From Candidatus Magasanikiibacteriota bacterium (GTDB lineage: Bacteria > Patescibacteriota > Patescibacteriia > Magasanikbacterales > UBA922): a stretch of 64,000 bases of DNA. The notes beneath the pieces are model-generated. The model was given only the letters and a program-made list of their open reading frames with translations. It was not told where the DNA came from and did no database searches. Both the position numbers and the translations under genes were made by a program. The stretch is from positions 10,869 through 74,868 of the forward strand of contig JBAYUH010000001.1 in assembly GCA_041675185.1 (NCBI GenBank), given 5' to 3'. This document shows positions 6,908-55,471 of this stretch, piece after piece. How positions within the stretch are numbered: position 1 is the first letter of the stretch; every line of letters begins with the position of its first letter.

Positions 6908-7037
6908 AATTTTTAATTTTAAATTTTGAATTTTAAAACAATTTTAAATGATTTAATTTCAAATGATGAGTCAGTATAATATTTTACGTAAAATAATTCT
7001 AGTTATTTATATAATTTAAAATTTTTAAATTCCAAAA

Positions 7038-7072
7038 TTGTTTTAAAATTTAAAATTCCTAAATTCAAAATT
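7038..7072 (+). repeat. Copy A of a conserved ~35-bp AT-rich intergenic motif (TTGTTTTAAAATTTAAAATTCCTAAATTCAAAATT)
   Basis: Near-identical copies occur at 39209-39243, 43636-43667 and 58185-58220, all in the same plus orientation. A related motif, AAATGA(T/C)TTAATT, is also nearby. Confidence 0.6.
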
Positions 7073-8599: not shown

Positions 8600-9691
8600 T
8601 TACGAATTTAATATATTTTGATATACTTCCTCCGTTTTCTTCAACATACTTTCCAAACTAAACTTACCCTCAACCAACACCATCCCATTCTTACCCAATT
8701 TCAATCTCAATTCAGGATTGTTTATCAATTCTAGCAAAGCTTGGCTTATTTTACCAGCGTTGTTTTCCACTAATCTCCCGACTGTATTATCCACTATTTC
8801 TCCCACTCCACCAACATTACTAGCTATCACAGGCAAACCAACTGACAAAGCCTCAAGAATAGTATAAGGAAATCCTTCCCAAGCAGAGATAAAAACAAAA
8901 ATATCATTTTTAGATAGTTCTTTCATTACTTCACCATGTTCTAAATTACCAGTAAAAAAAACATTTACTTTTTTTTCTTTAGCTAATTGTTCTAAATATT
9001 TTCTTTTTGGTCCGTCACCAACAATTGTAAATTGTATTTTATCTTGAATTTCTTTTTCAAAATTACTAATAACTTCAATAATCATCTCCGGCCTCTTCGG
9101 CTCAGCCAAACGCCCAACAAAAATTAAATTAACTTTTGAGCTAACTGTCGACTGTCGACTATCGACTGTCGACGTGATACCGTTGTATATAACAGTCATT
9201 TTTTCTTCACCAGCTAATTTATACTTTAATGCCAAATCCTTCACAAATTCAGAAACACAAATATATTTGTCTGTATATCCAGCATTTATTTTTTCAGTTA
9301 ACAAAACCAAAAATCTAACAAGAGGATTCATACCAATATTAAAACCCCAGCCATGGGCAGTATAGATTGTTTTGTATTTTCCTCTGATTGCCAAACGCGT
9401 TAGGAAAGCTGCGGAAGAACTATGGCAATGGACAATGTCTGGCTTAAATTTTTCTACAAAATTTTTTATTTCTTTTATAGCTTTTACAATCCTAACAGGA
9501 TTAGAGCTATTGGAAAAATATTTGTTTTCAAAATATTTTATATTATTTTTTTTACATTCATCTTTTAACCAACCATCACCACCAGCCATAACAACTACTT
9601 CGTTTTGTTTAGCAAAATAATTACAAAGATCTGACACATGAGTTTGTGCTCCGCCGGCTTCTGATTTAGTTATTAGATAAAGGATTTTCAT
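8600..9691 (-). CDS. Glycosyltransferase family 4 (GT-B, retaining)
   Basis: C-terminal EGFPYTILEALSVGLPVIAS (EX7E-type) motif. 363 aa. Confidence 0.8.
   Translation of the reverse strand: MKILYLITKSEAGGAQTHVSDLCNYFAKQNEVVVMAGGDGWLKDECKKNNIKYFENKYFSNSSNPVRIVKAIKEIKNFVEKFKPDIVHCHSSSAAFLTRLAIRGKYKTIYTAHGWGFNIGMNPLVRFLVLLTEKINAGYTDKYICVSEFVKDLALKYKLAGEEKMTVIYNGITSTVDSRQSTVSSKVNLIFVGRLAEPKRPEMIIEVISNFEKEIQDKIQFTIVGDGPKRKYLEQLAKEKKVNVFFTGNLEHGEVMKELSKNDIFVFISAWEGFPYTILEALSVGLPVIASNVGGVGEIVDNTVGRLVENNAGKISQALLELINNPELRLKLGKNGMVLVEGKFSLESMLKKTEEVYQNILNS
9145..9172. repeat. Tandem heptanucleotide repeat (CTGTCGA)x4 inside the GT4 coding sequence
   Basis: The sequence ctgtcga ctgtcga ctatcga ctgtcga is read directly from the window. 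It is locally GC-rich and encodes the linker STVDSRQSTVSS between the two GT-B domains. Confidence 0.7.
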
Positions 9692-10500
9692 AAATTTTTA
9701 TTCTTTATTTTGTTTATAATTTTTAATCCGCCAAGAAAAACAACAAAATATTTCAAAAACCATTTTGAACGTCCTAAAAAATAATTTGGATAAAAAAATT
9801 TATGTTTCTTTATCAATTGTAAATTGGCTTTTATTTGTCGCAAATTATTTTTCTGTGTTTCACCTTTTTCATTTAGCAAATAACCAACACTATATTCTGA
9901 TATATTGGCTAGTTTATACTTTTCACCCATACGTAACCACAAACCATAATCTTCAGCATACTTTTCTCCCATATCATAATTACCACACTCCAGACTAGCA
10001 TCTTTTCTAAACAAAACACTGGAATGAACAAAACAACTTTTTATTAACATTTTAGTTTTTATTTCTGAAAAATTTGTCGGATGTACTATGTTGAAAAGAT
10101 TTTCATTTCCAATATTATAAACTTTGGCCCAAGTACCTACCAAAGCGTAATTCAAATTATTATCCAAAAAATCCACTTGCTTTTGCAACTTATCTTTGTC
10201 TAGCCACCAATCATCACTATCTATTCTAGCAATATACTCACCTTTGGCAATTTCAATACCTTTGTTTAAGTTAAATATTAAACCTTGGTTTTCTTCATTT
10301 TTTATATAAATAATTCTTTTATCATCAAAAAATTTTATTTTTTCTTCTGTATTATCACTACTATTATCGTTTATAATAATAAATTCAAAATCAACAAAAG
10401 ACTGAAACAAAACACTTTCAACAGCTTTTGTTATAAATTCAGCATTATTGTAAGTTGACATGATTATGGATACTTTTGGCATATTTATAATCTTATCCAA
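9688..10500 (-). CDS. Glycosyltransferase family 2
   Basis: VSIIMSTYNNAEFI...IIINDNSSDNT...RIDSDDWW (DxD/DSDD) motifs. Confidence 0.8.
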   Translation of the reverse strand: MDKIINMPKVSIIMSTYNNAEFITKAVESVLFQSFVDFEFIIINDNSSDNTEEKIKFFDDKRIIYIKNEENQGLIFNLNKGIEIAKGEYIARIDSDDWWLDKDKLQKQVDFLDNNLNYALVGTWAKVYNIGNENLFNIVHPTNFSEIKTKMLIKSCFVHSSVLFRKDASLECGNYDMGEKYAEDYGLWLRMGEKYKLANISEYSVGYLLNEKGETQKNNLRQIKANLQLIKKHKFFYPNYFLGRSKWFLKYFVVFLGGLKIINKIKNKNL

Positions 10501-11276
10501 TCTTTTGGAACTATATCACTCTTATTATTAACCTGATTGTTATTAAACCACTTTTTAGGAGCTATGACAATCTTATCTTTATTTTCATTGAGCCAAGCTC
10601 CCCACCAACTAAAACTACTATTAGCAATAATGTTGTGTTGACATTTACTCATAAGAATCAATTCTTCATAATCTTTTATGTCTTCACTAGAAACAAAAAA
10701 CAAATTATCTAATTTCAAATTTTCTTTTACCCAAGATATGTCATCAGAAAATACAAATATTTTTATCTCTCCAATTTTTTCTTTCAAATATTTTATAGCT
10801 CTTTCATAATAATTCAAATCACAAACACCGTGATAATCATTTGTTTTAATATCAGAAACATAGTCGCCACGACGAATGTGTAGGGAAACAGAATTTCTAT
10901 TATGCAAAATTTCTTGTTCAAATTTGCTAGCACTTTCACTCATTTCATTTTTTAGAGTAAATTCTTTTCTAACAACATCTTCAATATTTCTAAAATATTT
11001 TTCACTTTGAAAATATTCTTCAACATTAAACCCTAATATCCTTTTTATTTTATTTACAAAATCAAAAAAAACATTTTTCTTATTTACAAATTTAACTTTT
11101 TTATCTATATTAAAATTGCACAATTTAAAATCTCTAGCAACATCATGTTTGGCTTTGTTGTTTTCAAAAAATGAAATATCAAAAACAACTTTCTTACCAG
11201 AAAATTCCAGACTCCTACCGTGAGCATATTGGAACATTTGATTACCGAGACCACCTTTTAGTTTCAAAACTATCAT
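10485..11276 (-). CDS. Alpha-1,2-fucosyltransferase, glycosyltransferase family 11 (FutC/WbnK-like)
   Basis: MIVLKLKGGLGNQMFQYA N-terminal motif, HIRRGDY, and C-terminal CQHNIIANSSFSWWGAWL. These are the three hallmark GT11 motifs shared with H. pylori FutC. Confidence 0.85.
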   Translation of the reverse strand: MIVLKLKGGLGNQMFQYAHGRSLEFSGKKVVFDISFFENNKAKHDVARDFKLCNFNIDKKVKFVNKKNVFFDFVNKIKRILGFNVEEYFQSEKYFRNIEDVVRKEFTLKNEMSESASKFEQEILHNRNSVSLHIRRGDYVSDIKTNDYHGVCDLNYYERAIKYLKEKIGEIKIFVFSDDISWVKENLKLDNLFFVSSEDIKDYEELILMSKCQHNIIANSSFSWWGAWLNENKDKIVIAPKKWFNNNQVNNKSDIVPKDWIRL

Positions 11277-11280
11277 AAAA

Positions 11281-12321
11281 TTAAGAAATTATTTTCTTTC
11301 TACCACCCAAAAATATAATGTCCAAAATAGACACTTTTCTCAAAAAAAATCTTGATATAACGATTGAACAAAATAATGATGTCACAACTGAAAACAATAT
11401 CAAAAACATATTACTTCCCAAACGTAACAAAAAATAAAAATGCAAAACATAAATATCCAAAGAGTATGAGCTCAACCATTTCAAAAAATTAAATATAATA
11501 TTTTTCTTCAATATATTGATAATAAAATATGAAAAACCAATACCTGAAAATGCAGTTAAAATAATAAAAGCAAAAGCCAACAATTGAGGAATATAAAATG
11601 ATTGATTAAAATTAACAAAACCAAAAATTTTTTCTAAAAAGAAATAATGATTCGTACGATGCCACAGAGAAACTAAAATGGGGAATAAAACAAGAGAAAC
11701 AAGGCTTAAGTGAAATAAATATTTTTTAAAAAAATTAGCAAATACTCTTGACAGATAGCCAATAAAAAAATATATACTATGCCATTTCAACAAACCAATT
11801 CCTAAAAATCTATACGGTGACAATTCTATTAATAGAATTAATAAAAAATAAGAAACTATACCTATTTTTTTCTCTAATTTTATAGCAACCAAAAGACAGC
11901 AAAAATTTAAAAATAATACCCACAAAAACCACAATCCAAAATCTGGAGAAAAAAATAATTTCATCCAATATGCCCAAAATCCTGTAAAATGATAGGCACC
12001 TTTTATAAAATAATCTAAAAAATACCACGCTAAAAATGGTACAACTAAACAAAGAAATTTTTTTCTAACAAAAGTAAACGATGGCAATTTTAAGATATTG
12101 AAAGCTACAAAACCACTCAAAAACATAAACAACGGCATGTGAAAAGAATAAATTATACGAAAAAATATATTATTATCAAAATCCAATAAATTAATCTGTA
12201 ATGCGTGACCAACTACTACCAAAATTATTGCAAAACCTTTTAGAGCATCAACAAGAGCAATCCTTGAGTTATTTACCTGCCCTTCAACAGAAGTATTATT
12301 TTGAAAACCAAATAAAGACAT
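11281..12321 (-). CDS. Acyltransferase-3 family integral membrane protein (putative polysaccharide O-acetyltransferase)
   Basis: 346-aa polytopic membrane protein. It has an N-terminal VVVGHALQI region typical of the OafA/WecH acyltransferase_3 family. Confidence 0.5.
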   Translation of the reverse strand: MSLFGFQNNTSVEGQVNNSRIALVDALKGFAIILVVVGHALQINLLDFDNNIFFRIIYSFHMPLFMFLSGFVAFNILKLPSFTFVRKKFLCLVVPFLAWYFLDYFIKGAYHFTGFWAYWMKLFFSPDFGLWFLWVLFLNFCCLLVAIKLEKKIGIVSYFLLILLIELSPYRFLGIGLLKWHSIYFFIGYLSRVFANFFKKYLFHLSLVSLVLFPILVSLWHRTNHYFFLEKIFGFVNFNQSFYIPQLLAFAFIILTAFSGIGFSYFIINILKKNIIFNFLKWLSSYSLDIYVLHFYFLLRLGSNMFLILFSVVTSLFCSIVISRFFLRKVSILDIIFLGGRKKIIS

Positions 12322-12334
12322 AAACTTCTATTAG

Positions 12335-13117
12335 TTAATATTTAAATTTTTTAATTATTTTTTTTAGATTACTAACAATTAATCGCATCTCTAATTTATT
12401 TCTCAATTTAAAATGACCACCTAATTTTGTTTTATCTTTTATTAAAATTTTCCGTTCAAATGGTATGTCAAAATCTTCAGGATACAAATAAGCTGGTGTA
12501 AGTATTTTGACAATATGTAAATTATTATTCAAATAACAATTCCAATGAGATTCATCGTGCCAAACAGCAGTGATATTATTACTAAAATCTTTTTTGATAT
12601 TATTACTCATTACTTCCATAGATTCTATAAAATCTTTTGATCGTCCACCATTTATACCTCCAGCAAAATAATATGCACCTTGCCCCTTAGGAATGAAAGC
12701 TGATGATCTTGAATTTCTCTCGTAAGTAAAGCTATCCACTTTTTTATCATAATAACCAGGATGTAGGCAGGCAACTAATTTTTCTTGGCCAACTGGTACA
12801 AATTCATCAGCAATAATCTTTTCCAAAAATTGTAAATTAGCATTAAAAAAGAATAGAAAATCAAAACTTTTTAAAGTCTCTTTTAATTTCAAAAACATTT
12901 CATATCTTCTCAATGTATTCCCTGGCCACCCTAAATTTTCTTGAGGTACTCTGTGTATTCTTGAATTTTCACTCTCAAATTCGATACTTTCACTATCCGT
13001 AAAAACAAAATAGTGTTTTTCAGCATCAGAAATAAAATATTTTTCACAACTCAAATAAAAATCTTTCCAAAAAAGATTGTATTTACCTGTGCAAATATAT
13101 AATATACCTATCTTCAT
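12335..13117 (-). CDS. Glycosyltransferase family 6 (ABO blood-group A/B transferase / alpha-1,3-Gal(NAc) transferase homologue, bacterial NxN type)
   Basis: The sequence aligns by eye to the human GTA/GTB catalytic core: LHPGYY..FTYERN.RSSAFIPKGQGAYYFAGG..GG...AVWHDESHWNCYL...KILTPAYLYPE. The FFFNANL motif replaces the eukaryotic DVD motif, as in Bacteroides/E. coli O86 GT6 enzymes. Confidence 0.85.
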   Translation of the reverse strand: MKIGILYICTGKYNLFWKDFYLSCEKYFISDAEKHYFVFTDSESIEFESENSRIHRVPQENLGWPGNTLRRYEMFLKLKETLKSFDFLFFFNANLQFLEKIIADEFVPVGQEKLVACLHPGYYDKKVDSFTYERNSRSSAFIPKGQGAYYFAGGINGGRSKDFIESMEVMSNNIKKDFSNNITAVWHDESHWNCYLNNNLHIVKILTPAYLYPEDFDIPFERKILIKDKTKLGGHFKLRNKLEMRLIVSNLKKIIKKFKY

Positions 13118-16999: not shown

Positions 17000-17008
17000 A
17001 CTTTTTAG

Positions 17009-17722: not shown

Positions 17723-17732
17723 ATACTTTGAT

Positions 17733-28800: not shown

Positions 28801-29622
28801 TATTATATCTGCAAAATAACGTTCTACTTTTTTAAAATAAAAATAACCCAAAAAACAATAAACCAACATACTAATTGTAGAGACTTCCAGCAACAGCCAA
28901 TTTATTTGACCAACACCCAATATCACAACTCTAGCAGTATCTATTACACCAGCCATAGGATTCAACCCCAAAATCCATCTAAATTTTTCACTAACAATAC
29001 TGACTGGGTATATCACTGGCGTAATAAAAATCAATAATTGAATAAAAAACGGCAAAACAAATCTGACATCACGATATTTGACATTCAAAGAACCGAATAA
29101 CAAACCAATACCCAAAGTAGAAAAAATAGTCATTATTATTAATAAAGGAAAAAATACTAAACCCAATAAAGATGGTATATAATGATAAAAAATCATCATA
29201 CCAACCAAAATTATACTAGCAATCAAAAAATCTACTATATTTGTTATAATTGAAGAAATAGGCAAAATAATTCTAGGAAAATAAACTTTGGTGACAATTT
29301 TTTCATTTTCCATAAAAGTATTACTCGCATGTGTCAAACCACTAGAAAATAATGTCCAAAATATCAAACCAGTGTACACAAAAATAGGATAAGGAATTCC
29401 ATCTGATGGCATCTGTGCCAATCTGCCAAAAAAAATAGTAAACACAACCATAGTAACAAATGGTTGAAAAATCGCCCACAAAGCACCTATCGCTGTCTGT
29501 TTATATTTTACTTTCAAATCACGCCAAGTAAAAAAATAAAACAAATCACGAAATTGCCAAATTTCGTTTAGATCTAGTTGCCACCACTTATTTTTTGGTT
29601 TGATTATAATTTCCATAGACAT
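28798..29622 (-). CDS. wzm: ABC-2 type transporter permease (Wzm/TagG family)
   Basis: 274 aa with 6 predicted TM helices. It is adjacent to wzt. Confidence 0.8.
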   Translation of the reverse strand: MSMEIIIKPKNKWWQLDLNEIWQFRDLFYFFTWRDLKVKYKQTAIGALWAIFQPFVTMVVFTIFFGRLAQMPSDGIPYPIFVYTGLIFWTLFSSGLTHASNTFMENEKIVTKVYFPRIILPISSIITNIVDFLIASIILVGMMIFYHYIPSLLGLVFFPLLIIMTIFSTLGIGLLFGSLNVKYRDVRFVLPFFIQLLIFITPVIYPVSIVSEKFRWILGLNPMAGVIDTARVVILGVGQINWLLLEVSTISMLVYCFLGYFYFKKVERYFADII

Positions 29623-30087: not shown

Positions 30088-31044
30088 TTAGGTGTCAATA
30101 GAGTTCAAATACCACTCATAAACCTGTTTTATCCCCTCTTTCAAACCAATTTCATCTTTCCAACCTAATTTATTTATTTTACTAACATCTAATAATTTTT
30201 GCATTGTCCCGTCTGGTTTGCTTTTGTCACAAACTATTTTACCGCCAAAACCTACAATCTCTTTTATTATTTTGGCCAATTCTCCAACAGTCAAATCATT
30301 TCCCGTACCAATATTCAAAAACATCTCACCTCTTTCATTTTCTTTTTTATTAGGATCAAAATTTTGTAAAACAAATAGACAAGCCCGAGCCAAATCATCC
30401 ACATGTAAAAATTCTCTTCTAGGTCTGCCTGTTCCCCAAATCTCTACTTGTTTTTTGTTATTTATATTTGCTTCATGAAATTTACGAATAAGCGCTGGCA
30501 AAACATGAGAAGTTTCCAAATCAAAATTATCATTTGGTCCATACAAATTAGTTGGCATCACAGCAATAAAATTAGTACCATATTGTCTATTGTAGCTTTG
30601 GCACATTTTTATACCAGCAATCTTAGCAATAGCATAAGGCTCATTGGTTTTTTCTAGTTCACCTGTCATTAAATATTCTTCTTTGATAGGCTGTAGGCAA
30701 TCTTTTGGATAGATACAAGACGAACCCAAAAATAACAGCTTCTTTACTCCAGACAAATAAGCATTATGAATAATATTATTTTGTATTTGTAAATTTTGAT
30801 AAAGAAAATCTGCTGGATAATTATTATTAGCAAGAATTCCCCCGACTTTGGCTGCTGCCAAAATTACATAATCTGGTCTTTCTGATACAAAAAAATCCGC
30901 CACAGCTTTGGCATCTATCAAATCTAATTCTTCTCTTGTTCTTACAACCAAATTATTATAACCTTCAGTTTTCAATTTGCGAACAATAGCCGAACCGACC
31001 ATACCGTTGTGACCGGCGATGTATATTTTGGAATTTTTATCCAT
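30088..31044 (-). CDS. fcl: GDP-L-fucose synthase (GDP-4-keto-6-deoxymannose 3,5-epimerase/4-reductase)
   Basis: MDKNSKIYIAGHNGMVGSAIVRKL. Length of 318 aa and overall similarity to Fcl/WcaG. Confidence 0.85.
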   Translation of the reverse strand: MDKNSKIYIAGHNGMVGSAIVRKLKTEGYNNLVVRTREELDLIDAKAVADFFVSERPDYVILAAAKVGGILANNNYPADFLYQNLQIQNNIIHNAYLSGVKKLLFLGSSCIYPKDCLQPIKEEYLMTGELEKTNEPYAIAKIAGIKMCQSYNRQYGTNFIAVMPTNLYGPNDNFDLETSHVLPALIRKFHEANINNKKQVEIWGTGRPRREFLHVDDLARACLFVLQNFDPNKKENERGEMFLNIGTGNDLTVGELAKIIKEIVGFGGKIVCDKSKPDGTMQKLLDVSKINKLGWKDEIGLKEGIKQVYEWYLNSIDT

Positions 31045-31261: not shown

Positions 31262-32269
31262 TTATTCACACATAATCTTCACCAATTCCTTAAATTTCGT
31301 CTTCGGCTCCCAGCCCAACTTATCTTTGGCCTTCGTAGCATCACCCAACAACAAATCCACTTCAGCTGGACGAAAATATTTTTCATCAATTTCAATTAAA
31401 ACTTTACCAGTTTTTTTGTCTATTCCTTTTTCTTTTAATCCACTACCTTGCCATTTTATTTCAAAATCAAAATACTGTGAAGCTTCTTCCACAAATTCCC
31501 GTACACTATGTGTTTCACCAGTGGCTACTACATAATCATCTGGATCTTTTTGTTGAAGCATAAGCCACATAGCCTCGACATAATCTTTGGCATAACCCCA
31601 ATCACGTTTGGCTTCTAAGTTTCCCAAATATAATTTTTCTTGTTTTCCTTCTTTGATATTTTTGAAAGCATCAACAATTTTTTTAGTTACAAAAGTACCA
31701 CCACGTCTTGGAGATTCGTGATTGAACAATATCCCATTACAAACAAACATATTATAGCTATCACGATAATTGACAGCGATATTATGGGCATAGACCTTGG
31801 CACAAGCATAAGGACTGCGTGGATAAAAGCCAGTCGTCTCTTTTTGAGGAGTTTCCAACACTTTTCCAAACATTTCTGAGCTACCCGCCTGATAAAATTT
31901 TACTTTCATTCCCTTGTCACGAATAGCGTCAAGCAGACGCAATGTTCCAAGACCATCAGCATCAGCAGTATATTCAGGCAAATCAAAACTAACACGAACA
32001 TGACTCTGGGCACCAAGATTGTATATTTCATCAATCTGTACTTCATCCAAAATACGACTAATATTACTACTGTCAGTCAAATCTCCGTAATGCAAAAATA
32101 ATTTTACATCTTTACTATGTCGATCACGATAGAGATGGTCAATTCTTTCAGTATTGAAACTACTAGAACGACGGATAATCCCATGCACTTCATAACCTTT
32201 TTGCAATAATAATTCAGCCAGATAAGATCCGTCTTGGCCAGTTATTCCTGTAATTAATGCTTTTTTCAT
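31262..32269 (-). CDS. gmd: GDP-mannose 4,6-dehydratase
   Basis: [47 protein letters not shown] is the canonical Gmd N-terminus. Confidence 0.9.
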
Positions 32270-32767: not shown

Positions 32768-34774
32768 TTAAAATTGAATACCCTTTTCCAACGCAGCACT
32801 ATGCAAATCCAAAGCCTTTTGTACCTCTCCCATCCCCTTATACATATTTTCCAACTGTTGCCAGCCATTGGCAATCTTAAAATCATTGTCAATACTGTCC
32901 TGCAAGAGCTTGGTAGCTTCATCATACTTATGCAAATTTTCTTTTACACCTGCAAGCATATACTGTATTTGTTGTCTTTTTGGTGACAAAATCAAAGCGT
33001 CTTCCAATATTTTTTCTGTTTCTATCAAAAATGACGTGTCTTGTTTGGCTACTGCCCCATAAATTTTTATTTGAGCCAATTGTATACTAACTCTTATATC
33101 ATCTGGATGCAACTCCAAATTTTGATTCAAATTTCTCACAGCTTCATCATAAAAAGGTTGGATTTCTGACCATTTGTTCGAAGTTTTTTGATCTTTCAAA
33201 ATCTGAGAAATAATCTCACCAAAAATACGCGCTGTATCATTTCTAATATCATCAATATGTGGTGAAGGGATAGCAAACGCACGATTGTAGTCTTCTATAT
33301 AATTCCTACCAAAATTCAAATCTCTAATAGTCAACAGAGTTGCTTTGTTTGCTCTTGCTGAATTGACATCAGTACTATAAATAAAAAGTAAAATCAATAA
33401 AGAAACAAATACTGTCCAAGGCATAGAAACATCTCTATTACTTTTAGTAATATTTTCTGATTTTGTTTTTTCTGCAAAGACAGATGCAAAAGCCAAAAAA
33501 AAGAAAAAATAAAGATAAGAAGTAGGATTGTCAAAAACAGTTGCTACACTTATAAAGTGCGTCCAAAGAAAAGCTACTCCAAACGCCAAAACATGAACAT
33601 CTATTTTTCCTTCTTTGTATCTCTTAGAGAGACAAATAGTAGCCAAAACAAAAATACTAATATACAAAAGCAATCCAACAATCCCTTGCACTGCCAAAGT
33701 ATTCATAATTACACTATGAGCATTGTCAAACCAAGTTTCAGTAAAACCATATTCCAAAAATTCAGCCCGATAATATTTGTTGAAAGCATAATAATAATTG
33801 TTTGGGCCCCAACCAAAAATAGGTTTTTCTGTCCAAGCATCGAGTGCTACACCCCAGGCCATTACTCTAGTATTGGTTTTGGAAATGTCTGTATTCAAAA
33901 GACGACCAACAGCTGGCAAACTACTGACAAAATTAGTATTTCTATTTATAAACAAAACACCCATGGCAGAAACACCAAGTAAGACAACTATCAAAACAAT
34001 TTGTTTCAATTTCTTCTGCTCTTTCAAAGTGAAGAAGTAGACAGCTAATAAAACAAAAAGTCCCAAAATAAAAGCTACTAAAGCTCCACGAGTACCCCCC
34101 AAAAATATACCCCAAATACCAAGCAGAGCAACTACAATTTCAAACCAAAACCAACTAGCATCCATTGACAAAAATTTAATACTTCTTATTTTCAAATTTT
34201 CTTTAATAGCCAAAAACGTTCCCAAAAAAAACAAGAACATCCCATATCCACTAAAATAAATAGAATTGCCAAGCGTAGAAGACACACGATCACTACCTCT
34301 GTTCAAAAGTAAATTTGGATTAACATGTTTTTGTAATACACCAATAAACATCACTATACTTCCAGCCAAAAGAAAAGTACGCATGAGCCATTTCCAATCT
34401 GACCAATCACGTACCACAGTTGTAATGATAAAATAATAAACAATATAATGAAAAATTGTAAAAGTACCAAGCATTCTTTCGTGATTATCCCAAAAACTCT
34501 TGTACCAATCTACTCCCACAAAAGTAGAAACAACAAAAGAAGCAAAAAATAATAATACAGCAATATTGATCCAAGAAAATCTAGGTCTGTATTTCTTGAA
34601 ATCACTAACTAACAAAATAAGATAAAGCCCAAGCATCACCAAAACTAGAGATCTAAAATAGATAATTTTTGGCACTATGAAAGGAAAGACATAAGTTGTA
34701 GGAAATATCAGAAGTGGTACAAAAAAAGTGATTCCAATTATTATTTTTAGAATTTTTTCTAAAGTTTTTTGCAT
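32768..34774 (-). CDS. Wzy_C (O-antigen ligase / O-oligosaccharyltransferase) domain polytopic membrane protein with C-terminal TPR repeats
   Basis: 668 aa with about 12 TM helices and a large periplasmic-type loop. The C-terminal ~180 aa carry TPR-like helices (YDEATKLLQDSI, ALDLHSAALEKG). The architecture resembles WaaL/PglL/WsaB-type ligases. Confidence 0.6.
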   Translation of the reverse strand: MQKTLEKILKIIIGITFFVPLLIFPTTYVFPFIVPKIIYFRSLVLVMLGLYLILLVSDFKKYRPRFSWINIAVLLFFASFVVSTFVGVDWYKSFWDNHERMLGTFTIFHYIVYYFIITTVVRDWSDWKWLMRTFLLAGSIVMFIGVLQKHVNPNLLLNRGSDRVSSTLGNSIYFSGYGMFLFFLGTFLAIKENLKIRSIKFLSMDASWFWFEIVVALLGIWGIFLGGTRGALVAFILGLFVLLAVYFFTLKEQKKLKQIVLIVVLLGVSAMGVLFINRNTNFVSSLPAVGRLLNTDISKTNTRVMAWGVALDAWTEKPIFGWGPNNYYYAFNKYYRAEFLEYGFTETWFDNAHSVIMNTLAVQGIVGLLLYISIFVLATICLSKRYKEGKIDVHVLAFGVAFLWTHFISVATVFDNPTSYLYFFFFLAFASVFAEKTKSENITKSNRDVSMPWTVFVSLLILLFIYSTDVNSARANKATLLTIRDLNFGRNYIEDYNRAFAIPSPHIDDIRNDTARIFGEIISQILKDQKTSNKWSEIQPFYDEAVRNLNQNLELHPDDIRVSIQLAQIKIYGAVAKQDTSFLIETEKILEDALILSPKRQQIQYMLAGVKENLHKYDEATKLLQDSIDNDFKIANGWQQLENMYKGMGEVQKALDLHSAALEKGIQF

Positions 34775-34944: not shown

Positions 34945-37900
34945 TTAACTTGATTTAGATACAGAGAAGTGACTAGTTGGTAGACTCAAATAAAAACCGT
35001 TTACCCATTCAGTTGAACCAACTCCATCAGAGTCAGCAGACTGATCAGACCAAACAAAGTCATTGTTAGCATCACCATAAGCGTTAGCAAATGTTTCTGT
35101 GAATGCACTCAAATTGCCAGCATCACGAACAAAGTAAGTATCGATTGAATCACCAGCTTCAACACCAGCGATATCAGCGCGAACTTCGAAAGTACGTGTA
35201 GTACCAGCAGCAATTGTAACAACTTTAGTAGTATCAAAGTTGATCAAGAATTGACCATCTGTACTAGAAGTAGTTGAGGTAACATAACCATCGGTATTCA
35301 ATTGTGTTTCAGAACCTGTAACATCAAAAGCGTACAATGTACCAGAAGTAATTCTCAACCAAGCATCTGTACCATCAGAATCATTGAAGTCAATATATGG
35401 AGCGATACTACCCAAAACTACATCACCATTAGCTGGAGCAGTAACAGTAAACTTCATGATTGTTTTACCAGTGTTAGAACCAGTACTCAATGAAGTACTT
35501 GGAAGAGTTGCAACTGCAACAGTTGGTTTTGACAATCGAACTGACATTGTATTACCAACAGCAGCATCAGCAGCTGTATCAGTAAATCCAGAAGTAGCTA
35601 CAGCCTTGAAATAATCAGCTGTAGTATCTAATCTGAATTCTACAAAATCTCCAGAATCAGCGCCTGTACCAGCAGTACCAACGGTATTGGTTGTACGTTC
35701 GCCAATTGCACTGAATTTTGCTTTGACAACAACTACAGTTTCACCAGTATTAGCTACTGAGAAATTCAAAGAATCAAAGACAGCTTGGCCACTAGAATTT
35801 AGACCAACACCACCGTCAGGACCCAATTGAGTTCCTGTACTACTATACAATTGGACATATTCTACATCATCATAAGCATCTGTAGAAGATACCAAAATAG
35901 TCATTTTTTGTACATTGAAAGCTTCTTTAGTAGCAGTCAAAGTGATACGATGCATTTCTTGTTCAGTTGACAAACCAGCAAGTACAATACCTGCATCTGG
36001 TTTACCACTATTAGCAGCTGTAGTAATAGTACCATTAGCAGCTACAGTGATAGCAACAGAAGGAGCTGTAGTACCATTTAAGTTAGTACCAGTTACAGTA
36101 GCATCAAAAGAGCCATTAGCATCTTCTGCAGTAATGTCAGCAGTAGCAAGAGTAAATGCAAATGCATCATTCTCTGAACCATAAGGAGCATTACCAGAGA
36201 TAACAGCTTTGGCAACAATTGTCTTACTTGTTCCAGCAGGGATAGTATAATAACCACCCACAAATTTACTAGAACTAAATATTGCTTTACCATTTGAATC
36301 AACAGTAGCAGGACCAGCAACTAATGTGTCACCAACATACAAACTTACTTGAGTGACTACAGCATTAGCTGGAGTTGCAACAGTTTCTGTTTCAGTATTC
36401 AAAGTATAATAAACATCAGCTGTTGTACTTGCGTTGATATATGTGTTCAATGTCAAAGCAGACACTTTTACATCATTACCAGCACCAGAACCAGCAGTGA
36501 AAATCATACCAAGAGCATCAACAGTAGATCCTTTTACAACTGTTCTTGATTCAGGAGAAGCTGCACGAGATACAGTCAAAGATGAACTACGAGTAGTAAC
36601 ATTGTAACCAGCTACATTAGTAGCAGGAACAACATCAGTTATTGTATTATCTTTTGAATCTTTTGCAGTAAATACAGTACTACCAAATTCTAGAGTAGCT
36701 TTGTAAACTACACCAGAAACTTGAGCAGTATTGATATCAGCTACTACAGCAACATTTTTAGTTGCACCTTTAGCTACTGTAAAATAATCAGTATATGTAA
36801 AGGTTAATGTAGCGTTGGTATTATTACCATCAGCCCAAGAATCAGCATCTGTAATTGCTTTTGCAGAACCGATAGTTTGACCAGAATCTGCATCAATCAA
36901 TTTGATATTACGGATAAGTAAAGTATCGGTAGTAGAATCATATTGATCACCAGTACCTAAATCCTTATACAAACCATAAGATACAGCACTATTAGTTGTA
37001 CTTGTAGTTTCCAATTGTAAAGTCATTTTTTGTACTTCAGTACTATCAGAAACAGCTTTCACAGCAACTCTCATAAGTTCTACACTTGTAGAATCAACTT
37101 TTACATCATGAGCAGATGCACTATGATTAGAGATAGTTACTCCACCACCTTGTAGTGTAAGAGTTGAACTATTACCAGCATCATCATATGAAGTAATAGT
37201 AGCCAAAGCACCATAACCATATGATGTACCAACAGCTTTTACATCAGCTGCGTTGTTCATGAAGAATACGATTGTATCTGCAACATCTGCACTAGCACTA
37301 ATATCACCTACCAAACTAAAAGTTTTACTTGCACCGTTTACCAATTTTAGAGGTGTATTTAAAGCTAAAGTAAGATAGCGACCATTCAAAGTAGCTGTTG
37401 TAGGAACAACATCAACACCTTGATATAATTTGAAATTACTCAAATTACTTGTAGTAAGAGTACCATCTTGTTTCAAAGTGATAGCTGAAAACATTTCATC
37501 TTCAGTAGCAGCTGTCAATTTGAATTGAGCCATTGTTACATTAGTATCACCAACTGTAGGATTTGACAAAGTGCCAGTACCTACAACTGTCAATGTACCA
37601 GCAGTTACTGCACTACTTACTGTAAAAGTATTACCAGTTACAGGAAGACCAGTTACTGTTGTACCTAGACTAGAATTGATAGCTGTGATAGAAAAGTTAT
37701 GTTCTCCAGCTGTAGTACCTGTTTGTAATCTAACAGTCAATACTTTTGTAGAATTAGCAGGAACTACCAAACCAAGAGAAGTAAATTCTGCTGTGTTAGT
37801 ATCTGAAGAAAAAGTTCTACCAGATGAACCAAGTCTTACTTCACCATCATATAGATAAGATGTAAGACCAGTTGTCAAACCAGCGCCAGATCTTTTTACT

Positions 37901-38799
37901 GTAACTTCATTAACAGTAACAGCTGAACTACCAGCTACTAAGTTTACTTTCAATACATCTACATTTGTAGCACTCTTTGGAAGAGTAGCACTTGTAGGTG
38001 TACTAGCGTTTAAACTAACAGCCAAATTACCACTAGCTGTAGGAGGAGTTGTTGTTGTACCTTGACCAAGGTTAACTAACAAATCTAATACAGTAGCTTT
38101 TGTAACAGTACTACCACTGTCTTCTACAGTTGCGAATACTGAGTCAGAAACAGTTTGTACACTACCAGCAGAAGCACCAAGAGTGCCATCTACCATGTAT
38201 AGTTTACCATCTTTTACGAAGTAAACTGAGTCAGAACTAGCTTTTTTTACAAGCATACCTGCATGAGGTACAGCACTTACAAGAGCTGTGCCAACAGTTG
38301 GGTAGACAGTTGTCCACCAAGCACTGTTTACATCTCTAACTTTTGTTGTCCAATTTGAACCATAAAGAGCAGATGCTACTTCTTCACTAGGAAGGGCAAC
38401 TTTTGTTCCGTTTGGTGTTACTGCGTATACAGTATTATTTACTTCTTCTTTTACAAGCATAGAACCAGGTCTAAAACTTACTCCATAAGGAGCTGAAGAA
38501 GTTTGTGGGTAAGCATTGAAACAAGTTTGTGTCAATTTGTTTACACCACTGAAATCACTATACCAAGTGTGATATACTTCTGAATTTGGGAAGTATAATC
38601 TTTCCAAATTTGAGTTCAAAAGGAAAACAGCAGAATTGCCGGTCAATTGAACTAGATCTCCAGCACTAAGTGTTGGACATTCACCTTCAGCGTGTGCGAC
38701 TACAGGAACTAGAGCTGAAACGCCTAGACTCCATGCTAATGTCATTGCCACGACTGAAAAGGTGAACAATTTTTTTCCGAATTTTAATACGTCATTCAT
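34945..38799 (-). CDS. Putative S-layer / major cell-surface (glyco)protein
   Basis: 1284 aa. Signal peptide FTFSVVAMTLAWSLGVSALVPVVAHA. The composition is dominated by Thr/Ser/Ala/Val/Gly/Asn with essentially no Cys after the N-terminus. GC content and codon choice (act/gct/gtt/ggt/tct) are distinct from neighbours, consistent with a highly expressed gene. It has its own promoter, a strong SD (AAAAAGGU) and its own terminator. Confidence 0.5.
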   Translation of the reverse strand: MNDVLKFGKKLFTFSVVAMTLAWSLGVSALVPVVAHAEGECPTLSAGDLVQLTGNSAVFLLNSNLERLYFPNSEVYHTWYSDFSGVNKLTQTCFNAYPQTSSAPYGVSFRPGSMLVKEEVNNTVYAVTPNGTKVALPSEEVASALYGSNWTTKVRDVNSAWWTTVYPTVGTALVSAVPHAGMLVKKASSDSVYFVKDGKLYMVDGTLGASAGSVQTVSDSVFATVEDSGSTVTKATVLDLLVNLGQGTTTTPPTASGNLAVSLNASTPTSATLPKSATNVDVLKVNLVAGSSAVTVNEVTVKRSGAGLTTGLTSYLYDGEVRLGSSGRTFSSDTNTAEFTSLGLVVPANSTKVLTVRLQTGTTAGEHNFSITAINSSLGTTVTGLPVTGNTFTVSSAVTAGTLTVVGTGTLSNPTVGDTNVTMAQFKLTAATEDEMFSAITLKQDGTLTTSNLSNFKLYQGVDVVPTTATLNGRYLTLALNTPLKLVNGASKTFSLVGDISASADVADTIVFFMNNAADVKAVGTSYGYGALATITSYDDAGNSSTLTLQGGGVTISNHSASAHDVKVDSTSVELMRVAVKAVSDSTEVQKMTLQLETTSTTNSAVSYGLYKDLGTGDQYDSTTDTLLIRNIKLIDADSGQTIGSAKAITDADSWADGNNTNATLTFTYTDYFTVAKGATKNVAVVADINTAQVSGVVYKATLEFGSTVFTAKDSKDNTITDVVPATNVAGYNVTTRSSSLTVSRAASPESRTVVKGSTVDALGMIFTAGSGAGNDVKVSALTLNTYINASTTADVYYTLNTETETVATPANAVVTQVSLYVGDTLVAGPATVDSNGKAIFSSSKFVGGYYTIPAGTSKTIVAKAVISGNAPYGSENDAFAFTLATADITAEDANGSFDATVTGTNLNGTTAPSVAITVAANGTITTAANSGKPDAGIVLAGLSTEQEMHRITLTATKEAFNVQKMTILVSSTDAYDDVEYVQLYSSTGTQLGPDGGVGLNSSGQAVFDSLNFSVANTGETVVVVKAKFSAIGERTTNTVGTAGTGADSGDFVEFRLDTTADYFKAVATSGFTDTAADAAVGNTMSVRLSKPTVAVATLPSTSLSTGSNTGKTIMKFTVTAPANGDVVLGSIAPYIDFNDSDGTDAWLRITSGTLYAFDVTGSETQLNTDGYVTSTTSSTDGQFLINFDTTKVVTIAAGTTRTFEVRADIAGVEAGDSIDTYFVRDAGNLSAFTETFANAYGDANNDFVWSDQSADSDGVGSTEWVNGFYLSLPTSHFSVSKSS

Positions 38800-55356: not shown

Positions 55357-55471
55357 ACATTATAATAGTTAAAATTTGTAAAAAATGTTTTGTTTAAAAA
55401 ATTACAACTCTCAAATTACATTTTTTGTATATTGTGATTTGTTTGGAATTTGTTTATTTATAATTGTATAT

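What the first reader, a model, noticed from the sequence alone, without database searches (positions are those of the whole stretch)
10485..13117. GT11 alpha-1,2-fucosyltransferase plus ABO-type GT6 transferase, with gmd/fcl: predicted histo-blood-group A/B-like epitope
The 263-aa ORF has all three GT11 motifs (GGLGNQMFQYA, HIRRGDY, ANSSFSWWGAW). The 260-aa ORF aligns along its whole catalytic core with human ABO transferases (LHPGYY, FTYERN, AVWHDESHWN, TPAYLYPE) and has the bacterial NxN (FFFNANL) metal-site variant. GDP-fucose supply (gmd 31262-32269, fcl 30088-31044) is in the same locus. The same GT11 + GT6 + gmd/fcl quartet is what E. coli O86 uses for blood-group-B mimicry. In bacteria GT6 enzymes are rare and almost confined to a few host-associated lineages. 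Finding the pair in this genome suggests host-glycan mimicry or phage/lectin decoy.
Basis: partly seen in the sequence, partly recalled or inferred. Interest (0 to 1): 0.75.

Follow-up and report, generated by a model that had tools for sequence, protein, structure and literature searches.

The report
Blood-group-A-type glycan genes in CPR bacterium
A surface-sugar gene cluster of an uncultured ultra-small (Patescibacteria/CPR) bacterium carries the same enzyme set that E. coli O86 and Bacteroides ovatus use to make human ABO-type sugars; its sequence predicts the A-type sugar, not B, and the gene pair recurs widely in environmental bacteria, so it is real but a new member of a known kind.

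Summary
ORF 10485-11276(-) is a GT11 fucosyltransferase (Pfam E=6e-37). ORF 12335-13117(-) is a GT6 ABO-type transferase (Pfam E=4e-34; NCBIfam 301.7 bits, cut-off 250). gmd and fcl lie in the same minus-strand cluster.

The GT6 is 49% identical to the crystallised Bacteroides ovatus BoGT6a. It keeps 19 of 20 donor-site and 9 of 10 acceptor-site residues, including NAN, the fucose-accommodating His/Gly/Ile and the AGG(I) donor motif. I therefore predict a metal-independent alpha-1,3-GalNAc transferase giving an A-type determinant, not the B type of E. coli O86.

The adjacent GT4's best solved relative is O86 WbnH, so GT4-GT2-GT11-GT6 parallels WbnH/J/K/I. GT11 lies within 4 kb of GT6 in 24 of 33 well-flanked related loci.

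The source is a Candidatus Magasanikbacteria MAG. The cluster is ABC-transporter dependent (Wzm/Wzt), with a Wzy_C-TPR protein, a Ser/Thr-rich secreted protein and pseudaminic-acid genes, so a non-LPS surface glycan is likely.

"Confined to host-associated lineages" and vertebrate mimicry are not supported. NCBI already names both enzymes. Verdict: new member of a known kind in an unexpected lineage.

The parts
12335..13117 (-). GT6 (ABO-type) retaining transferase, 260 aa. NxN (NAN 92-94) metal-independent clade with a C-terminal basic-hydrophobic-basic tail. Predicted UDP-GalNAc:Fuc-alpha1,2-Gal alpha-1,3-GalNAc transferase.
   Evidence: Pfam PF03414 E=4.4e-34. NCBIfam NF041524 301.7 bits, above the 250 cut-off. 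BoGT6a 4ayj E=3.6e-75 and human GTA E=1e-27. 49% identity to BoGT6a. 19 of 20 donor and 9 of 10 acceptor positions identical.
10485..11276 (-). GT11 fucosyltransferase, 263 aa, predicted alpha-1,2-FucT that makes the H-type Fuc-alpha1,2-Gal acceptor.
   Evidence: Pfam PF01531 E=6.1e-37, near full length. HxRRxD and both other motifs present. NCBI name 'alpha-1,2-fucosyltransferase' MFA7314320.1. A homologue lies within 4 kb of GT6 in 31 of 53 related loci.
11281..12321 (-). Acyl_transf_3 membrane O-acyltransferase inserted between GT6 and GT11. Possible O-acetylation of the glycan.
   Evidence: Pfam PF01757 E=4.7e-22. No homologue in any of the 53 related loci. It occupies the position where relatives carry a domain fused to GT6.
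9688..10500 (-). GT2 inverting glycosyltransferase. Candidate for the beta-Gal transferase that supplies the galactose (WbnJ-like role, inferred).
   Evidence: Pfam PF00535 E=2.5e-33. Homologues (36-50% identity) lie beside GT11/GT6 in nearly all Patescibacteria and Neisseria loci. Specificity not tested.
8600..9691 (-). GT4 retaining glycosyltransferase, WbnH-like (in O86, an alpha-1,3-GalNAc transferase acting on GalNAc-PP-lipid).
   Evidence: Best PDB match is E. coli O86 WbnH 4xyw, E=7.6e-26 over residues 3-327; the next best is 5.9e-18. A 59% identical syntenic homologue is present in L001. WbnH role taken from PMC4506291.
5897..6907 (-). GalE UDP-glucose 4-epimerase. Possible supply of UDP-Gal and/or UDP-GalNAc.
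   Evidence: NCBIfam TIGR01179 459 bits, above the 262 cut-off.
31262..32269 (-). gmd, GDP-mannose 4,6-dehydratase.
   Evidence: TIGR01472 575 bits, above the 415 cut-off. Pfam GDP_Man_Dehyd E=2e-155.
30088..31044 (-). fcl, GDP-L-fucose synthase.
   Evidence: NF047922 493 bits, just below the 500 cut-off, E=3.7e-148.
27440..29622 (-). Wzm (28798-29622) and Wzt (27440-28783, with a Wzt_C carbohydrate-binding domain): ABC-transporter export of the lipid-linked glycan.
   Evidence: Pfam ABC2_membrane, ABC_tran and Wzt_C. Wzt matches the Aquifex O-antigen ABC transporter 8dku at E=3.9e-71.
32768..34774 (-). Wzy_C (O-antigen-ligase family) membrane protein with C-terminal TPR repeats. Predicted to transfer the finished glycan to its acceptor.
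   Evidence: Pfam Wzy_C E=5e-19 plus TPR. About 11 hydrophobic segments. Weak WaaL 7tpg hit at E=7.5e-5. Homologues are present in the CPR GT6 loci.
34945..38799 (-). 1284-aa secreted protein, 25% Ser+Thr, no Pfam family. Candidate glycoprotein acceptor (inferred).
   Evidence: A homologue lies beside Wzy_C in Parcubacteria locus L010.
19611..27432 (-). Pseudaminic-acid genes (PseB, PseC, PseF, PseI), DUF218, a formyltransferase-like gene, WbuX amidotransferase and HisH/HisF. This is the variable part of the same cluster.
   Evidence: NCBIfam equivalogs above cut-off. Pfam. Absent from the related loci.

Best explanation
The two ORFs belong to a four-gene glycosyltransferase block, GT4-GT2-GT11-(acyltransferase)-GT6. 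The block sits inside a roughly 30-kb ABC-transporter-dependent surface-glycan cluster of a Candidatus Magasanikbacteria (Patescibacteria/CPR) genome.

Proposed mechanism:
1. On a cytoplasmic lipid-linked primer, the WbnH-like GT4 and the GT2 build a GalNAc/Gal-containing stem (inferred).
2. The GT11 uses GDP-fucose, made by gmd and fcl in the same cluster, to add Fuc alpha-1,2 to a beta-galactose. This makes an H-type disaccharide (family shown, linkage inferred).
3. The NxN-type, metal-independent GT6 then adds alpha-1,3-GalNAc from UDP-GalNAc to that galactose. The product is a histo-blood-group-A-type determinant, GalNAc-alpha1,3(Fuc-alpha1,2)Gal. The active-site residues are shown; the activity is inferred.
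4. The glycan, which in this genome probably also carries an acetamidino-type pseudaminic acid, O-acetyl groups and a LicD-dependent phospho-substituent, is exported by Wzm/Wzt.
5. It is then attached outside the membrane by the Wzy_C-TPR protein. The likeliest acceptor is a Ser/Thr-rich surface protein, because CPR cells are not thought to make LPS.

Its likely biological role is cell-surface identity (recognition by hosts, phages or lectins), not mimicry of a vertebrate host.
For: Family membership rests on Pfam, NCBIfam and full-length PDB matches to BoGT6a (E=3.6e-75) and human GTA (E=1e-27).

The active site is conserved. 19 of 20 BoGT6a donor-site positions are identical: T10, Y13, W66, N69, T70, R73, N95-A-N97, A155-G-G, W189, H190, D191, E192, K231, H239 and R243. 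9 of 10 acceptor positions are identical, including H122, G124 and I228, which the BoGT6a paper ties to accommodating the 2'-fucose (residue roles from PMC3516806 and PMC3961637). Overall identity is only 49%.

The donor motif AGG(I) equals the BoGT6a AGGL that was shown by mutagenesis to set UDP-GalNAc preference. An alpha3GT AGGL mutant gains GalNAc-transferase activity (PMC3516806).

GT11 and GT6 are linked. GT11 is within 4 kb of GT6 in 24 of 33 loci that have at least 5 kb of flank on both sides. The divergence of the two proteins is correlated (Spearman 0.77, p=5e-7). The pairing is also annotated in Synechococcus phages B3 and B23.

The O86 parallel: the GT4's best PDB hit is WbnH, and WbnH/J/K/I together build the O86 unit (PMC4506291).

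Pathway context comes from Wzm/Wzt with Wzt_C, Wzy_C+TPR, GalE, gmd and fcl. Synteny with an independent Magasanikbacteria genome on a 906-kb contig (L001) argues against a binning artefact.
Against: No enzyme activity, glycan structure or expression data exist for this organism. Everything beyond family membership and residue conservation is inference.

GT11 linkage and acceptor specificity cannot be read from sequence. The GT2 could not be compared with WbnJ.

An O-acyltransferase sits between the two genes, and GT2b and DUF5672 flank GT6. In relatives GT6 is fused to methyltransferase or extra GT-A domains. The A-type trisaccharide may therefore be modified or extended and never exposed as such.

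No phosphoglycosyl transferase and no manB/manC were found in the window, so the pathway is incomplete here.

fcl scores just below its NCBIfam cut-off. The acceptor of the Wzy_C protein is unknown, and an LCP ligase nearby offers an alternative attachment to peptidoglycan.
Confidence: 0.62

Rival explanations
1. B-type product, as in E. coli O86: the GT6 transfers galactose from UDP-Gal, giving Gal-alpha1,3(Fuc-alpha1,2)Gal.
For: The gene set parallels O86. Donor preference in GT6 can change with one or two residues. Close relatives, including the sister sequence L001, carry a different triad (QGA), so both states occur in this clade.
Against: The window enzyme has A-G-G-I, matching the GalNAc-specific BoGT6a (AGGL) and the small-residue logic of human GTA (L-G-G). 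It does not match GTB (M-G-A) or alpha3GT (H-A-A). N92, the equivalent of BoGT6a N95 that contacts the GalNAc N2', is conserved.
Confidence: 0.12
2. The two enzymes are not coupled: GT6 acts on a non-fucosylated galactoside or GalNAc (alpha-Gal or Forssman-like linkage) and GT11 fucosylates a different residue of the polymer.
For: The two genes are separated by another gene. Vertebrate GT6 members include enzymes that use non-fucosylated acceptors. GT11 also contains non-alpha-1,2 enzymes (PMC4202792 Table 3 lists an alpha-3-FUT from H. hepaticus).
Against: At the positions that exclude fucose in alpha3GT (Gln, Trp, Trp), the window protein has His119, Gly121 and Ile226, as in BoGT6a and GTA/GTB. 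All characterised bacterial GT6 enzymes in the papers read require Fuc-alpha1,2-Gal; PaGT6 is inactive on LacNAc. GT11-GT6 linkage is conserved across phyla and phages, and L022 may carry a GT6-GT11 in-frame junction.
Confidence: 0.1
3. The A-type unit is made but is cryptic: it is O-acetylated, methylated or extended by further sugars (Pse or others), so the displayed epitope is not blood-group-A-like.
For: Acyl_transf_3 lies between GT6 and GT11. GT2b, DUF5672 and a possible Pse transferase lie next to GT6. In relatives GT6 is fused to an FkbM methyltransferase or to additional GT-A domains. A Wzt_C domain is present; from my own knowledge, in characterised ABC-transporter systems this domain recognises a capped chain end.
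Against: Nothing argues directly against it. It is compatible with the enzymology of the best explanation and differs only in the final epitope.
Confidence: 0.3
4. Vertebrate host-glycan mimicry: the bacterium lives on an animal and copies its ABO antigens to evade immunity.
For: This is the classical reading for E. coli O86, H. mustelae and B. ovatus. Some relatives are Neisseria and Saccharibacteria MAGs that could come from animals.
Against: No tool result links this MAG to an animal: the source is labelled Candidatus Magasanikbacteria and its sample (ERZ27247358) has no stated environment. The nearest relatives come from lake, groundwater, soil and water-treatment MAGs (record titles). The cassette is conserved across several CPR classes.
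Confidence: 0.05

Closest known systems
Bacteroides ovatus BoGT6a (PDB 4ayj, 4ayl, 4cj8), a metal-independent blood-group-A synthase
   Same: NxN (NAN) in place of DxD, the AGG donor motif, all key donor and acceptor contact residues, the same length and a C-terminal basic-hydrophobic-basic tail. 49% identity over the full length.
   Different: Different phylum (Patescibacteria rather than Bacteroidota). L158 is replaced by I, and E132 by S; E132 is a contact from a neighbouring molecule in the crystal. Here the enzyme sits in an ABC-transporter-dependent, probably non-LPS, glycan cluster.
E. coli O86 O-antigen glycosyltransferases WbnH, WbnJ, WbnK/WbwK and WbnI with gmd/fcl (blood-group-B mimic)
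   Same: The same family quartet GT4-GT2-GT11-GT6 with GDP-fucose genes. The window GT4's best solved relative is WbnH.
   Different: From my own knowledge, O86 uses the Wzx/Wzy pathway and puts the epitope in every LPS O-unit. Here export is by Wzm/Wzt, no LPS is expected, the donor motif predicts GalNAc (A) rather than Gal (B), and an acyltransferase is inserted. The WbnI, WbnJ and WbnK sequences could not be obtained for direct comparison.
Human ABO transferases GTA and GTB (GT6) and FUT1/FUT2 (GT11)
   Same: The same two-step logic, H antigen then A or B. E=1e-27 to GTA over the catalytic domain, with the catalytic Glu and the acceptor His, Thr, Trp and Glu conserved.
   Different: The human enzymes are DxD, Mn2+-dependent, type II Golgi membrane proteins with a stem region. 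The window enzyme has NxN and a C-terminal amphipathic tail.
ABC-transporter-dependent S-layer protein O-glycosylation of Geobacillus stearothermophilus (slg cluster: Wzm/Wzt, WsaB with a Wzy_C domain, WsaE methyltransferase-glycosyltransferase fusion); recalled from my own knowledge, not tested here
   Same: Wzm/Wzt together with a Wzy_C-domain transferase next to a large secreted Ser/Thr-rich protein gene. Relatives carry glycosyltransferase-methyltransferase fusions.
   Different: No sequence comparison with the Wsa proteins was made. The acceptor protein and the O-oligosaccharyltransferase activity are unproven here.

Membership tests
CAZy GT6 (Pfam PF03414), bacterial NxN clade | Significant full-domain match to the family model, above the curated cut-off | tested here: met
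   PF03414 118.1 bits against a cut-off of 25. NF041524 301.7 bits against 250.
CAZy GT6 (Pfam PF03414), bacterial NxN clade | Catalytic Glu (BoGT6a E192, human E303) and the conserved Lys (K231) that stabilises the UDP leaving group | tested here: met
   E189 and K229 align with E192 and K231. Roles from PMC3516806 and PMC3961637.
CAZy GT6 (Pfam PF03414), bacterial NxN clade | Asn-X-Asn replacing the DxD metal site, plus a C-terminal basic-hydrophobic-basic membrane tail | tested here: met
   N92-A-N94. The tail KLRNKLEMRLIVSNLKKIIKKFKY fits the description in PMC3516806.
CAZy GT6 (Pfam PF03414), bacterial NxN clade | Acceptor pocket that admits the 2'-fucose (His, Gly and a small residue at positions A1, A2 and A7, rather than the Gln, Trp, Trp of alpha3GT) | tested here: met
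   H119, G121 and I226 are identical to BoGT6a H122, G124 and I228.
CAZy GT6 (Pfam PF03414), bacterial NxN clade | Retaining alpha-1,3 transfer of Gal or GalNAc to Fuc-alpha1,2-Gal, and metal independence (activity) | not testable with these tools
   Needs a recombinant enzyme assay.
A-type (GalNAc) rather than B-type (Gal) donor specificity | Small residues at the positions equivalent to human 266/268 (GTA L-G-G, BoGT6a A-G-G; against GTB M-G-A and alpha3GT H-A-A) | tested here: met
   A152-G153-G154-I155. The calibration comes from the literature only. The QGA class seen in relatives is not experimentally calibrated.
CAZy GT11 (Pfam PF01531) alpha-1,2-fucosyltransferases | Near full-length match above the curated cut-off | tested here: met
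   127.9 bits against 23.9, profile positions 36-295 of 298.
CAZy GT11 (Pfam PF01531) alpha-1,2-fucosyltransferases | HxRRxD GDP-fucose motif and the conserved N- and C-terminal motifs | tested here: met
   HIRRGD 133-138, GGLGNQMFQYA 8-18 and ANSSFSWWGAW 218-228.
CAZy GT11 (Pfam PF01531) alpha-1,2-fucosyltransferases | Alpha-1,2 linkage to beta-Gal (activity and acceptor) | not testable with these tools
   No solved GT11 relative was found by sequence. The linkage is inferred from the family and from conserved pairing with a fucose-accepting GT6.
E. coli O86-type HBGA cassette (WbnH/J/K/I plus gmd/fcl) | A GT4 orthologous to WbnH next to GT2, GT11 and GT6 | tested here: met
   WbnH 4xyw is the top PDB hit at E=7.6e-26 over the full length. 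This shows the best relative among solved structures, not proven orthology.
E. coli O86-type HBGA cassette (WbnH/J/K/I plus gmd/fcl) | A GT2 equivalent to the WbnJ beta-1,3-galactosyltransferase | not tested
   No WbnJ sequence was available. NCBIfam gives only sub-threshold generic GT2 hits.
E. coli O86-type HBGA cassette (WbnH/J/K/I plus gmd/fcl) | Wzx/Wzy-dependent assembly as an LPS O-antigen repeat unit | tested here: not met
   The cluster encodes Wzm/Wzt with Wzt_C, and no Wzx flippase family was found among the ORFs scanned. The organism is a CPR bacterium. It works like the O86 glycosyltransferase set but is not an O86-type O-antigen locus.

The most novel reading that the evidence does not exclude
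Histo-blood-group-type (A or B) determinants may be a conserved surface feature of many CPR/Patescibacteria lineages. On this reading they are built by a GT6-GT11-GT2(-GT4) cassette, exported by Wzm/Wzt and attached by a Wzy_C-TPR transferase to a Ser/Thr-rich surface protein. An ABO-like A/B polymorphism would arise through repeated AGG to QGA switches in the GT6 donor motif, and GT6 would be fused to capping enzymes such as methyltransferases or extra glycosyltransferase domains. Such a variable epitope could govern recognition between these episymbionts and their microbial hosts, phages or predators. It would also mean that ABO-type glycans are an ancient, largely environmental microbial invention rather than host mimicry.
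Probability: 0.25. Interest if true: 0.65.

Novelty: new member of a known kind. Interest (0 to 1): 0.4.

Why it matters
Bacterial ABO-type glycans have been discussed almost only for animal-associated Gram-negative bacteria, as LPS mimicry and as the source of natural anti-A and anti-B antibodies. Here the same enzyme set, with an intact active site, sits in an uncultured ultra-small bacterium and recurs across several CPR classes and other environmental phyla. This suggests these epitopes are common outside animals and may serve microbe-microbe or phage recognition. It also points to a pool of small, metal-independent A-type (AGG) and probably B-type (QGA) transferases that could be useful for enzymatic glycan synthesis. 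The enzymology itself is not new, and NCBI's pipeline already names both proteins.

Tried and rejected
(1) I tried to obtain E. coli O86 wbnI so as to calibrate the Gal-type donor motif. blastn 'distant' searches of the window GT6 and of two proteobacterial QGA-class GT6 genes against all complete E. coli genomes found nothing. Tumbale & Brew 2009 and Brew 2010 are not in the held library. QGA = Gal therefore remains an inference.

(2) The look-up of encoding contigs on the GT6 protein found no record. The GT11 look-up gave only an ENA assembly id (ERZ27247358) with no environment.

(3) A PDB sequence search with the GT11 gave no hit, so no structure-based residue check was possible for it.

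(4) I first estimated identity to BoGT6a at about 58% by eye. BLASTP gives 49%, and I corrected the figure.

(5) I considered an artefact or mis-binning and rejected it. The same block lies on a 906-kb contig of an independent Magasanikbacteria MAG (L001) and in about a dozen other CPR MAGs.

(6) I considered a mobile island. There is no tRNA, integrase or repeat signal near the block: the only tRNA is at 56792-56874, and the GC of the block (25-27%) is only slightly below its flanks. I did not pursue it further.

(7) I looked for an initiating phosphoglycosyl transferase and for manB/manC in the whole window and found none.

(8) The PDB search with the Wzy_C protein gave only a weak WaaL hit and TPR matches. 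It cannot separate a ligase from an O-oligosaccharyltransferase.

(9) I did not run structure prediction, because a 49%-identical crystal structure with ligands already exists.

Full report
**1. Observation**

Every quoted motif is present.
- Pfam places the 263-aa protein in Glyco_transf_11 (E=6.1e-37, 127.9 bits against a cut-off of 23.9, near full length).
- Pfam places the 260-aa protein in Glyco_transf_6 (E=4.4e-34).
- NCBIfam NF041524 'family 6 glucosyltransferase' scores 301.7 bits against a cut-off of 250.
- gmd (31262-32269) passes its equivalog cut-off (575 against 415). fcl (30088-31044) scores 493 against a cut-off of 500.

The two glycosyltransferase genes are separated by an Acyl_transf_3 gene (11281-12321).

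**2. Source organism and existing annotation**

The exact GT6 protein is in NCBI as MFA7314322.1, 'MAG: family 6 glucosyltransferase [Candidatus Magasanikbacteria bacterium]'. The GT11 is MFA7314320.1, 'alpha-1,2-fucosyltransferase'. The window therefore comes from a Patescibacteria (CPR) metagenome-assembled genome, and the automatic annotation already names both enzymes.

Mis-binning is unlikely. An independent Magasanikbacteria MAG carries the same block on a 906-kb contig (L001: GT6, GT11, GT2, GT4 in the same order). About a dozen other CPR MAGs carry it too.

**3. The GT6 enzyme**

Its best solved relative is Bacteroides ovatus BoGT6a (E=3.6e-75, full length). Human GTA and GTB follow at about 1e-27. 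Identity to BoGT6a is 49%.

I took residue roles from the BoGT6a-2'-fucosyllactose and BoGT6a-UDP-GalNAc crystal papers (PMC3516806 and PMC3961637). On that basis 19 of 20 donor-site positions and 9 of 10 acceptor positions are identical in the window protein. These include:
- the N-A-N that replaces the DxD metal site;
- the catalytic Glu (E189) and the leaving-group Lys (K229);
- H119, G121 and I226, the positions that are Gln, Trp and Trp in the fucose-excluding alpha3GT.

The one acceptor difference (E132 to S) involves a residue contributed by a neighbouring molecule in the crystal. The C-terminal tail is basic-hydrophobic-basic, as described for the bacterial NxN clade.

The donor motif is A152-G-G-I155. 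BoGT6a has A155-G-G-L158, which mutagenesis showed to set UDP-GalNAc preference over UDP-Gal. GTA has L-G-G, GTB has M-G-A and alpha3GT has H-A-A. The predicted activity is therefore a metal-independent alpha-1,3-GalNAc transferase acting on Fuc-alpha1,2-Gal. That gives an A-type product, not the B type of E. coli O86.

**4. Functional coupling with GT11**

I ran tblastn of the window proteins against 53 species-level genomes that encode a GT6 relative.
- A GT11 lies within 4 kb of GT6 in 31 loci.
- Among the 33 loci with at least 5 kb on both sides, 24 have one.
- These loci span Patescibacteria, Neisseria, Chlamydiota, Verrucomicrobiota and Actinomycetota.
- GT6 and GT11 identities to the window proteins are correlated (Spearman 0.77, p=5e-7). 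This fits a cassette inherited or transferred together, although shared phylogeny alone would also give a correlation.

GT6 is also present in 72 phage records, mostly cyanophages. In Synechococcus phages B3 and B23 it lies next to an annotated GT11. In L022 an ORF reads from the GT6 C-terminus directly into a GT11 N-terminus. That assembly has frameshifts, so I count this only as a hint.

**5. The block and the O86 parallel**

Downstream of GT11 lie a GT2 (9688-10500) and a GT4 (8600-9691).
- The GT4's best match among all solved structures is E. coli O86 WbnH (E=7.6e-26, full length). The next GT4 scores 5.9e-18.
- WbnH, WbnJ, WbnK and WbnI build the O86 pentasaccharide (PMC4506291). WbnI is the GTB-like enzyme (PMC4202792).
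- The GT2 homologue travels with GT11 and GT6 in nearly all Patescibacteria and Neisseria loci.

GT4-GT2-GT11-GT6 thus mirrors WbnH/J/K/I. I could not obtain the WbnI, WbnJ or WbnK sequences, so for those three the parallel is at family level only.

**6. The wider cluster**

All genes from about 34.8 kb down to about 5.2 kb are on the minus strand:
- a Wzy_C+TPR membrane protein, gmd and fcl;
- Wzm and Wzt, the latter with a Wzt_C carbohydrate-binding domain; Wzt matches the Aquifex O-antigen transporter 8dku at E=3.9e-71;
- PseB, PseC, PseF and PseI, all above cut-off;
- DUF218, a formyltransferase-like protein, WbuX amidotransferase and HisH/HisF;
- a nucleotidyltransferase fused to a CobD-like decarboxylase, a methyltransferase and LicD;
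- a 512-aa protein with weak Capsule_synth and BFO_1060 similarity, DUF5672 and a GT2;
- GT6, the acyltransferase, GT11, GT2 and GT4;
- a UDP-sugar dehydrogenase and GalE.

Directly upstream of the Wzy_C gene is a 1284-aa secreted protein with 25% Ser+Thr and no Pfam family. A homologue sits beside Wzy_C in a Parcubacteria locus. An LCP-family ligase lies 7 kb away.

The Pse, LicD and methyltransferase genes are absent from relatives. Wzm/Wzt, GT6, GT11, GT2, gmd/fcl and Wzy_C recur. The fucose/GT6 module is therefore the conserved core and the rest is variable.

I infer an ABC-transporter-dependent glycan that is attached outside the membrane. The likeliest acceptor is a surface protein, with peptidoglycan as the alternative. 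The PDB comparison of the Wzy_C protein (weak WaaL hit) does not decide this. No initiating phosphoglycosyl transferase and no manB/manC are present in the window.

**7. Diversity of the family**

I surveyed 174 GT6 sequences.

| Feature | State | Count |
|---|---|---|
| Metal site | NxN | 141 |
| Metal site | DxD | 29 |
| Donor triad | AGG | 115 |
| Donor triad | QGA | 22 |
| Donor triad | CGG | 21 |

In a neighbour-joining tree the window protein falls in a CPR-dominated subclade of the NxN clade. BoGT6a branches just outside that subclade. The DxD clade holds Chlamydiota, Verrucomicrobiota, Planctomycetia and Actinomycetota.

AGG and QGA alternate between sister sequences: window AGG against L001 QGA, and L006 AGG against L008 QGA. 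By analogy with GTB and alpha3GT, the bulkier Gln should favour UDP-Gal, but this is not calibrated experimentally.

In many CPR relatives GT6 is fused at its C-terminus to another domain:
- an FkbM methyltransferase (L001, L009);
- GT-A-like domains (three further classes).

The window GT6 is stand-alone, with the acyltransferase gene in the equivalent position.

**8. Assessment of the interpretation**

The family calls, the NxN variant, the GDP-fucose supply and the O86 analogy are right. Three things need correcting.
- The predicted epitope is A-type, not B-type.
- The claim that bacterial GT6 enzymes are nearly confined to host-associated lineages reflects the literature of 2012-2014: 25-36 species, almost all Gram-negative, none archaeal. 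It does not reflect present data: 1818 homologues and many environmental phyla, including a Woesearchaeota MAG.
- Vertebrate-host mimicry has no support for a Magasanikbacteria MAG.

I found no paper in the held library that links CPR/Patescibacteria with GT6, fucosyltransferases or blood-group glycans in any relevant way.

**9. Verdict**

This is a real and correctly identified gene pair with an intact active site. It is a new member of a known kind, the bacterial HBGA-type glycosyltransferase cassette. What is unusual is the lineage and the non-LPS, ABC-transporter setting. The enzymology is predictable from BoGT6a, and the novelty lies in distribution and biology, which remain untested. Interest is moderate (0.4).

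Noticed in passing
L001:10001-11650; also L009, L003, L004, L007, L010, L021, L005, L006, L052, L024, L044: In many CPR relatives the GT6 domain is fused at its C-terminus to a second domain. The partner is an FkbM-type methyltransferase in L001 and L009, and falls into three other classes that look like GT-A glycosyltransferases (one of them hits the window's GT2 genes). The window GT6 is stand-alone.
   Followed up: partly
L022:10412-11089: One ORF reads from the C-terminal half of GT6 straight into the N-terminus of a GT11 (…GGHFFLRN…YLSGGLGNQMFQYAKG…). This may be a GT6-GT11 fusion, but the assembly shows frameshifts on both sides.
   Followed up: partly
window 12335-13117 compared with L001, L002, L005, L008, L017, L022: The donor-specificity triad alternates between AGG (A-like) and QGA (probably B-like) among sister sequences within the CPR subclade. 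This resembles an ABO-like polymorphism between species.
   Followed up: partly
window 11281-12321 (-): The Acyl_transf_3 membrane acyltransferase between GT6 and GT11 has no homologue in any of the 53 related loci, so it appears to be an insertion specific to this genome.
   Followed up: partly
window 19611-27432 (-): A pseudaminic-acid gene set (PseB, PseC, PseF and PseI, all above NCBIfam cut-offs) lies here with WbuX, HisH and HisF, which suggest an acetamidino derivative, plus a formyltransferase-like gene and DUF218. No PseG or PseH was recognised.
   Followed up: partly
window 16292-19529 (-): A 598-aa fusion of a nucleotidyltransferase with a CobD-like PLP decarboxylase lies next to a SAM methyltransferase and LicD. 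This looks like a route to a phospho-amino-alcohol (phosphocholine-like) decoration of the glycan.
   Followed up: no
window 34945-38799 (-); L010 around 14631: A 1284-aa secreted protein, 25% Ser+Thr and without a Pfam family, lies directly upstream of the Wzy_C+TPR gene. A 25%-identical homologue lies beside Wzy_C in a Parcubacteria MAG. It is a candidate S-layer or glycoprotein acceptor.
   Followed up: partly
window 14757-16295 (-): A 512-aa protein has only weak hits to Capsule_synth (E=0.009) and to the BFO_1060 family glycosyltransferase (E=7e-4). It may be the nonulosonic-acid transferase.
   Followed up: no
window 42134-43579 (+): An LytR-CpsA-Psr (LCP) ligase with a LytR_C domain lies about 7 kb from the cluster. 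It offers an alternative route for attaching the polymer to peptidoglycan and fits a monoderm envelope.
   Followed up: no
window 1368-5165 (-): A 1265-aa secreted protein carries a Peptidase_C39_2 domain, a lamin-tail domain and an Ig-like domain, at the downstream end of the glycan cluster.
   Followed up: no
phage records H10 and H11 (Synechococcus phages B23 and B3), H4-H7 (P-SSM2, P-SSM5), H1 and H9 (human faecal phage contigs): 72 phage records encode GT6 relatives at 34-43% identity. In phages B3 and B23 the match lies next to an annotated GT11, so the GT6-GT11 pairing extends to cyanophages.
   Followed up: no
L047 (Candidatus Woesearchaeota MAG), 6407-7138: A DxD-type GT6 homologue (29% identity, 597-aa ORF) sits in an archaeal MAG, although the 2014 literature states that GT6 is absent from archaea. 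Binning was not checked.
   Followed up: no
window 54511-56239 (-), 56792-56874 (+): parB and parA lie here with the only tRNA in the window (tRNA-Leu CAA). Gene orientation flips near 41-42 kb, and the strongly negative GC skew over 1-34 kb flattens after about 36 kb.
   Followed up: no
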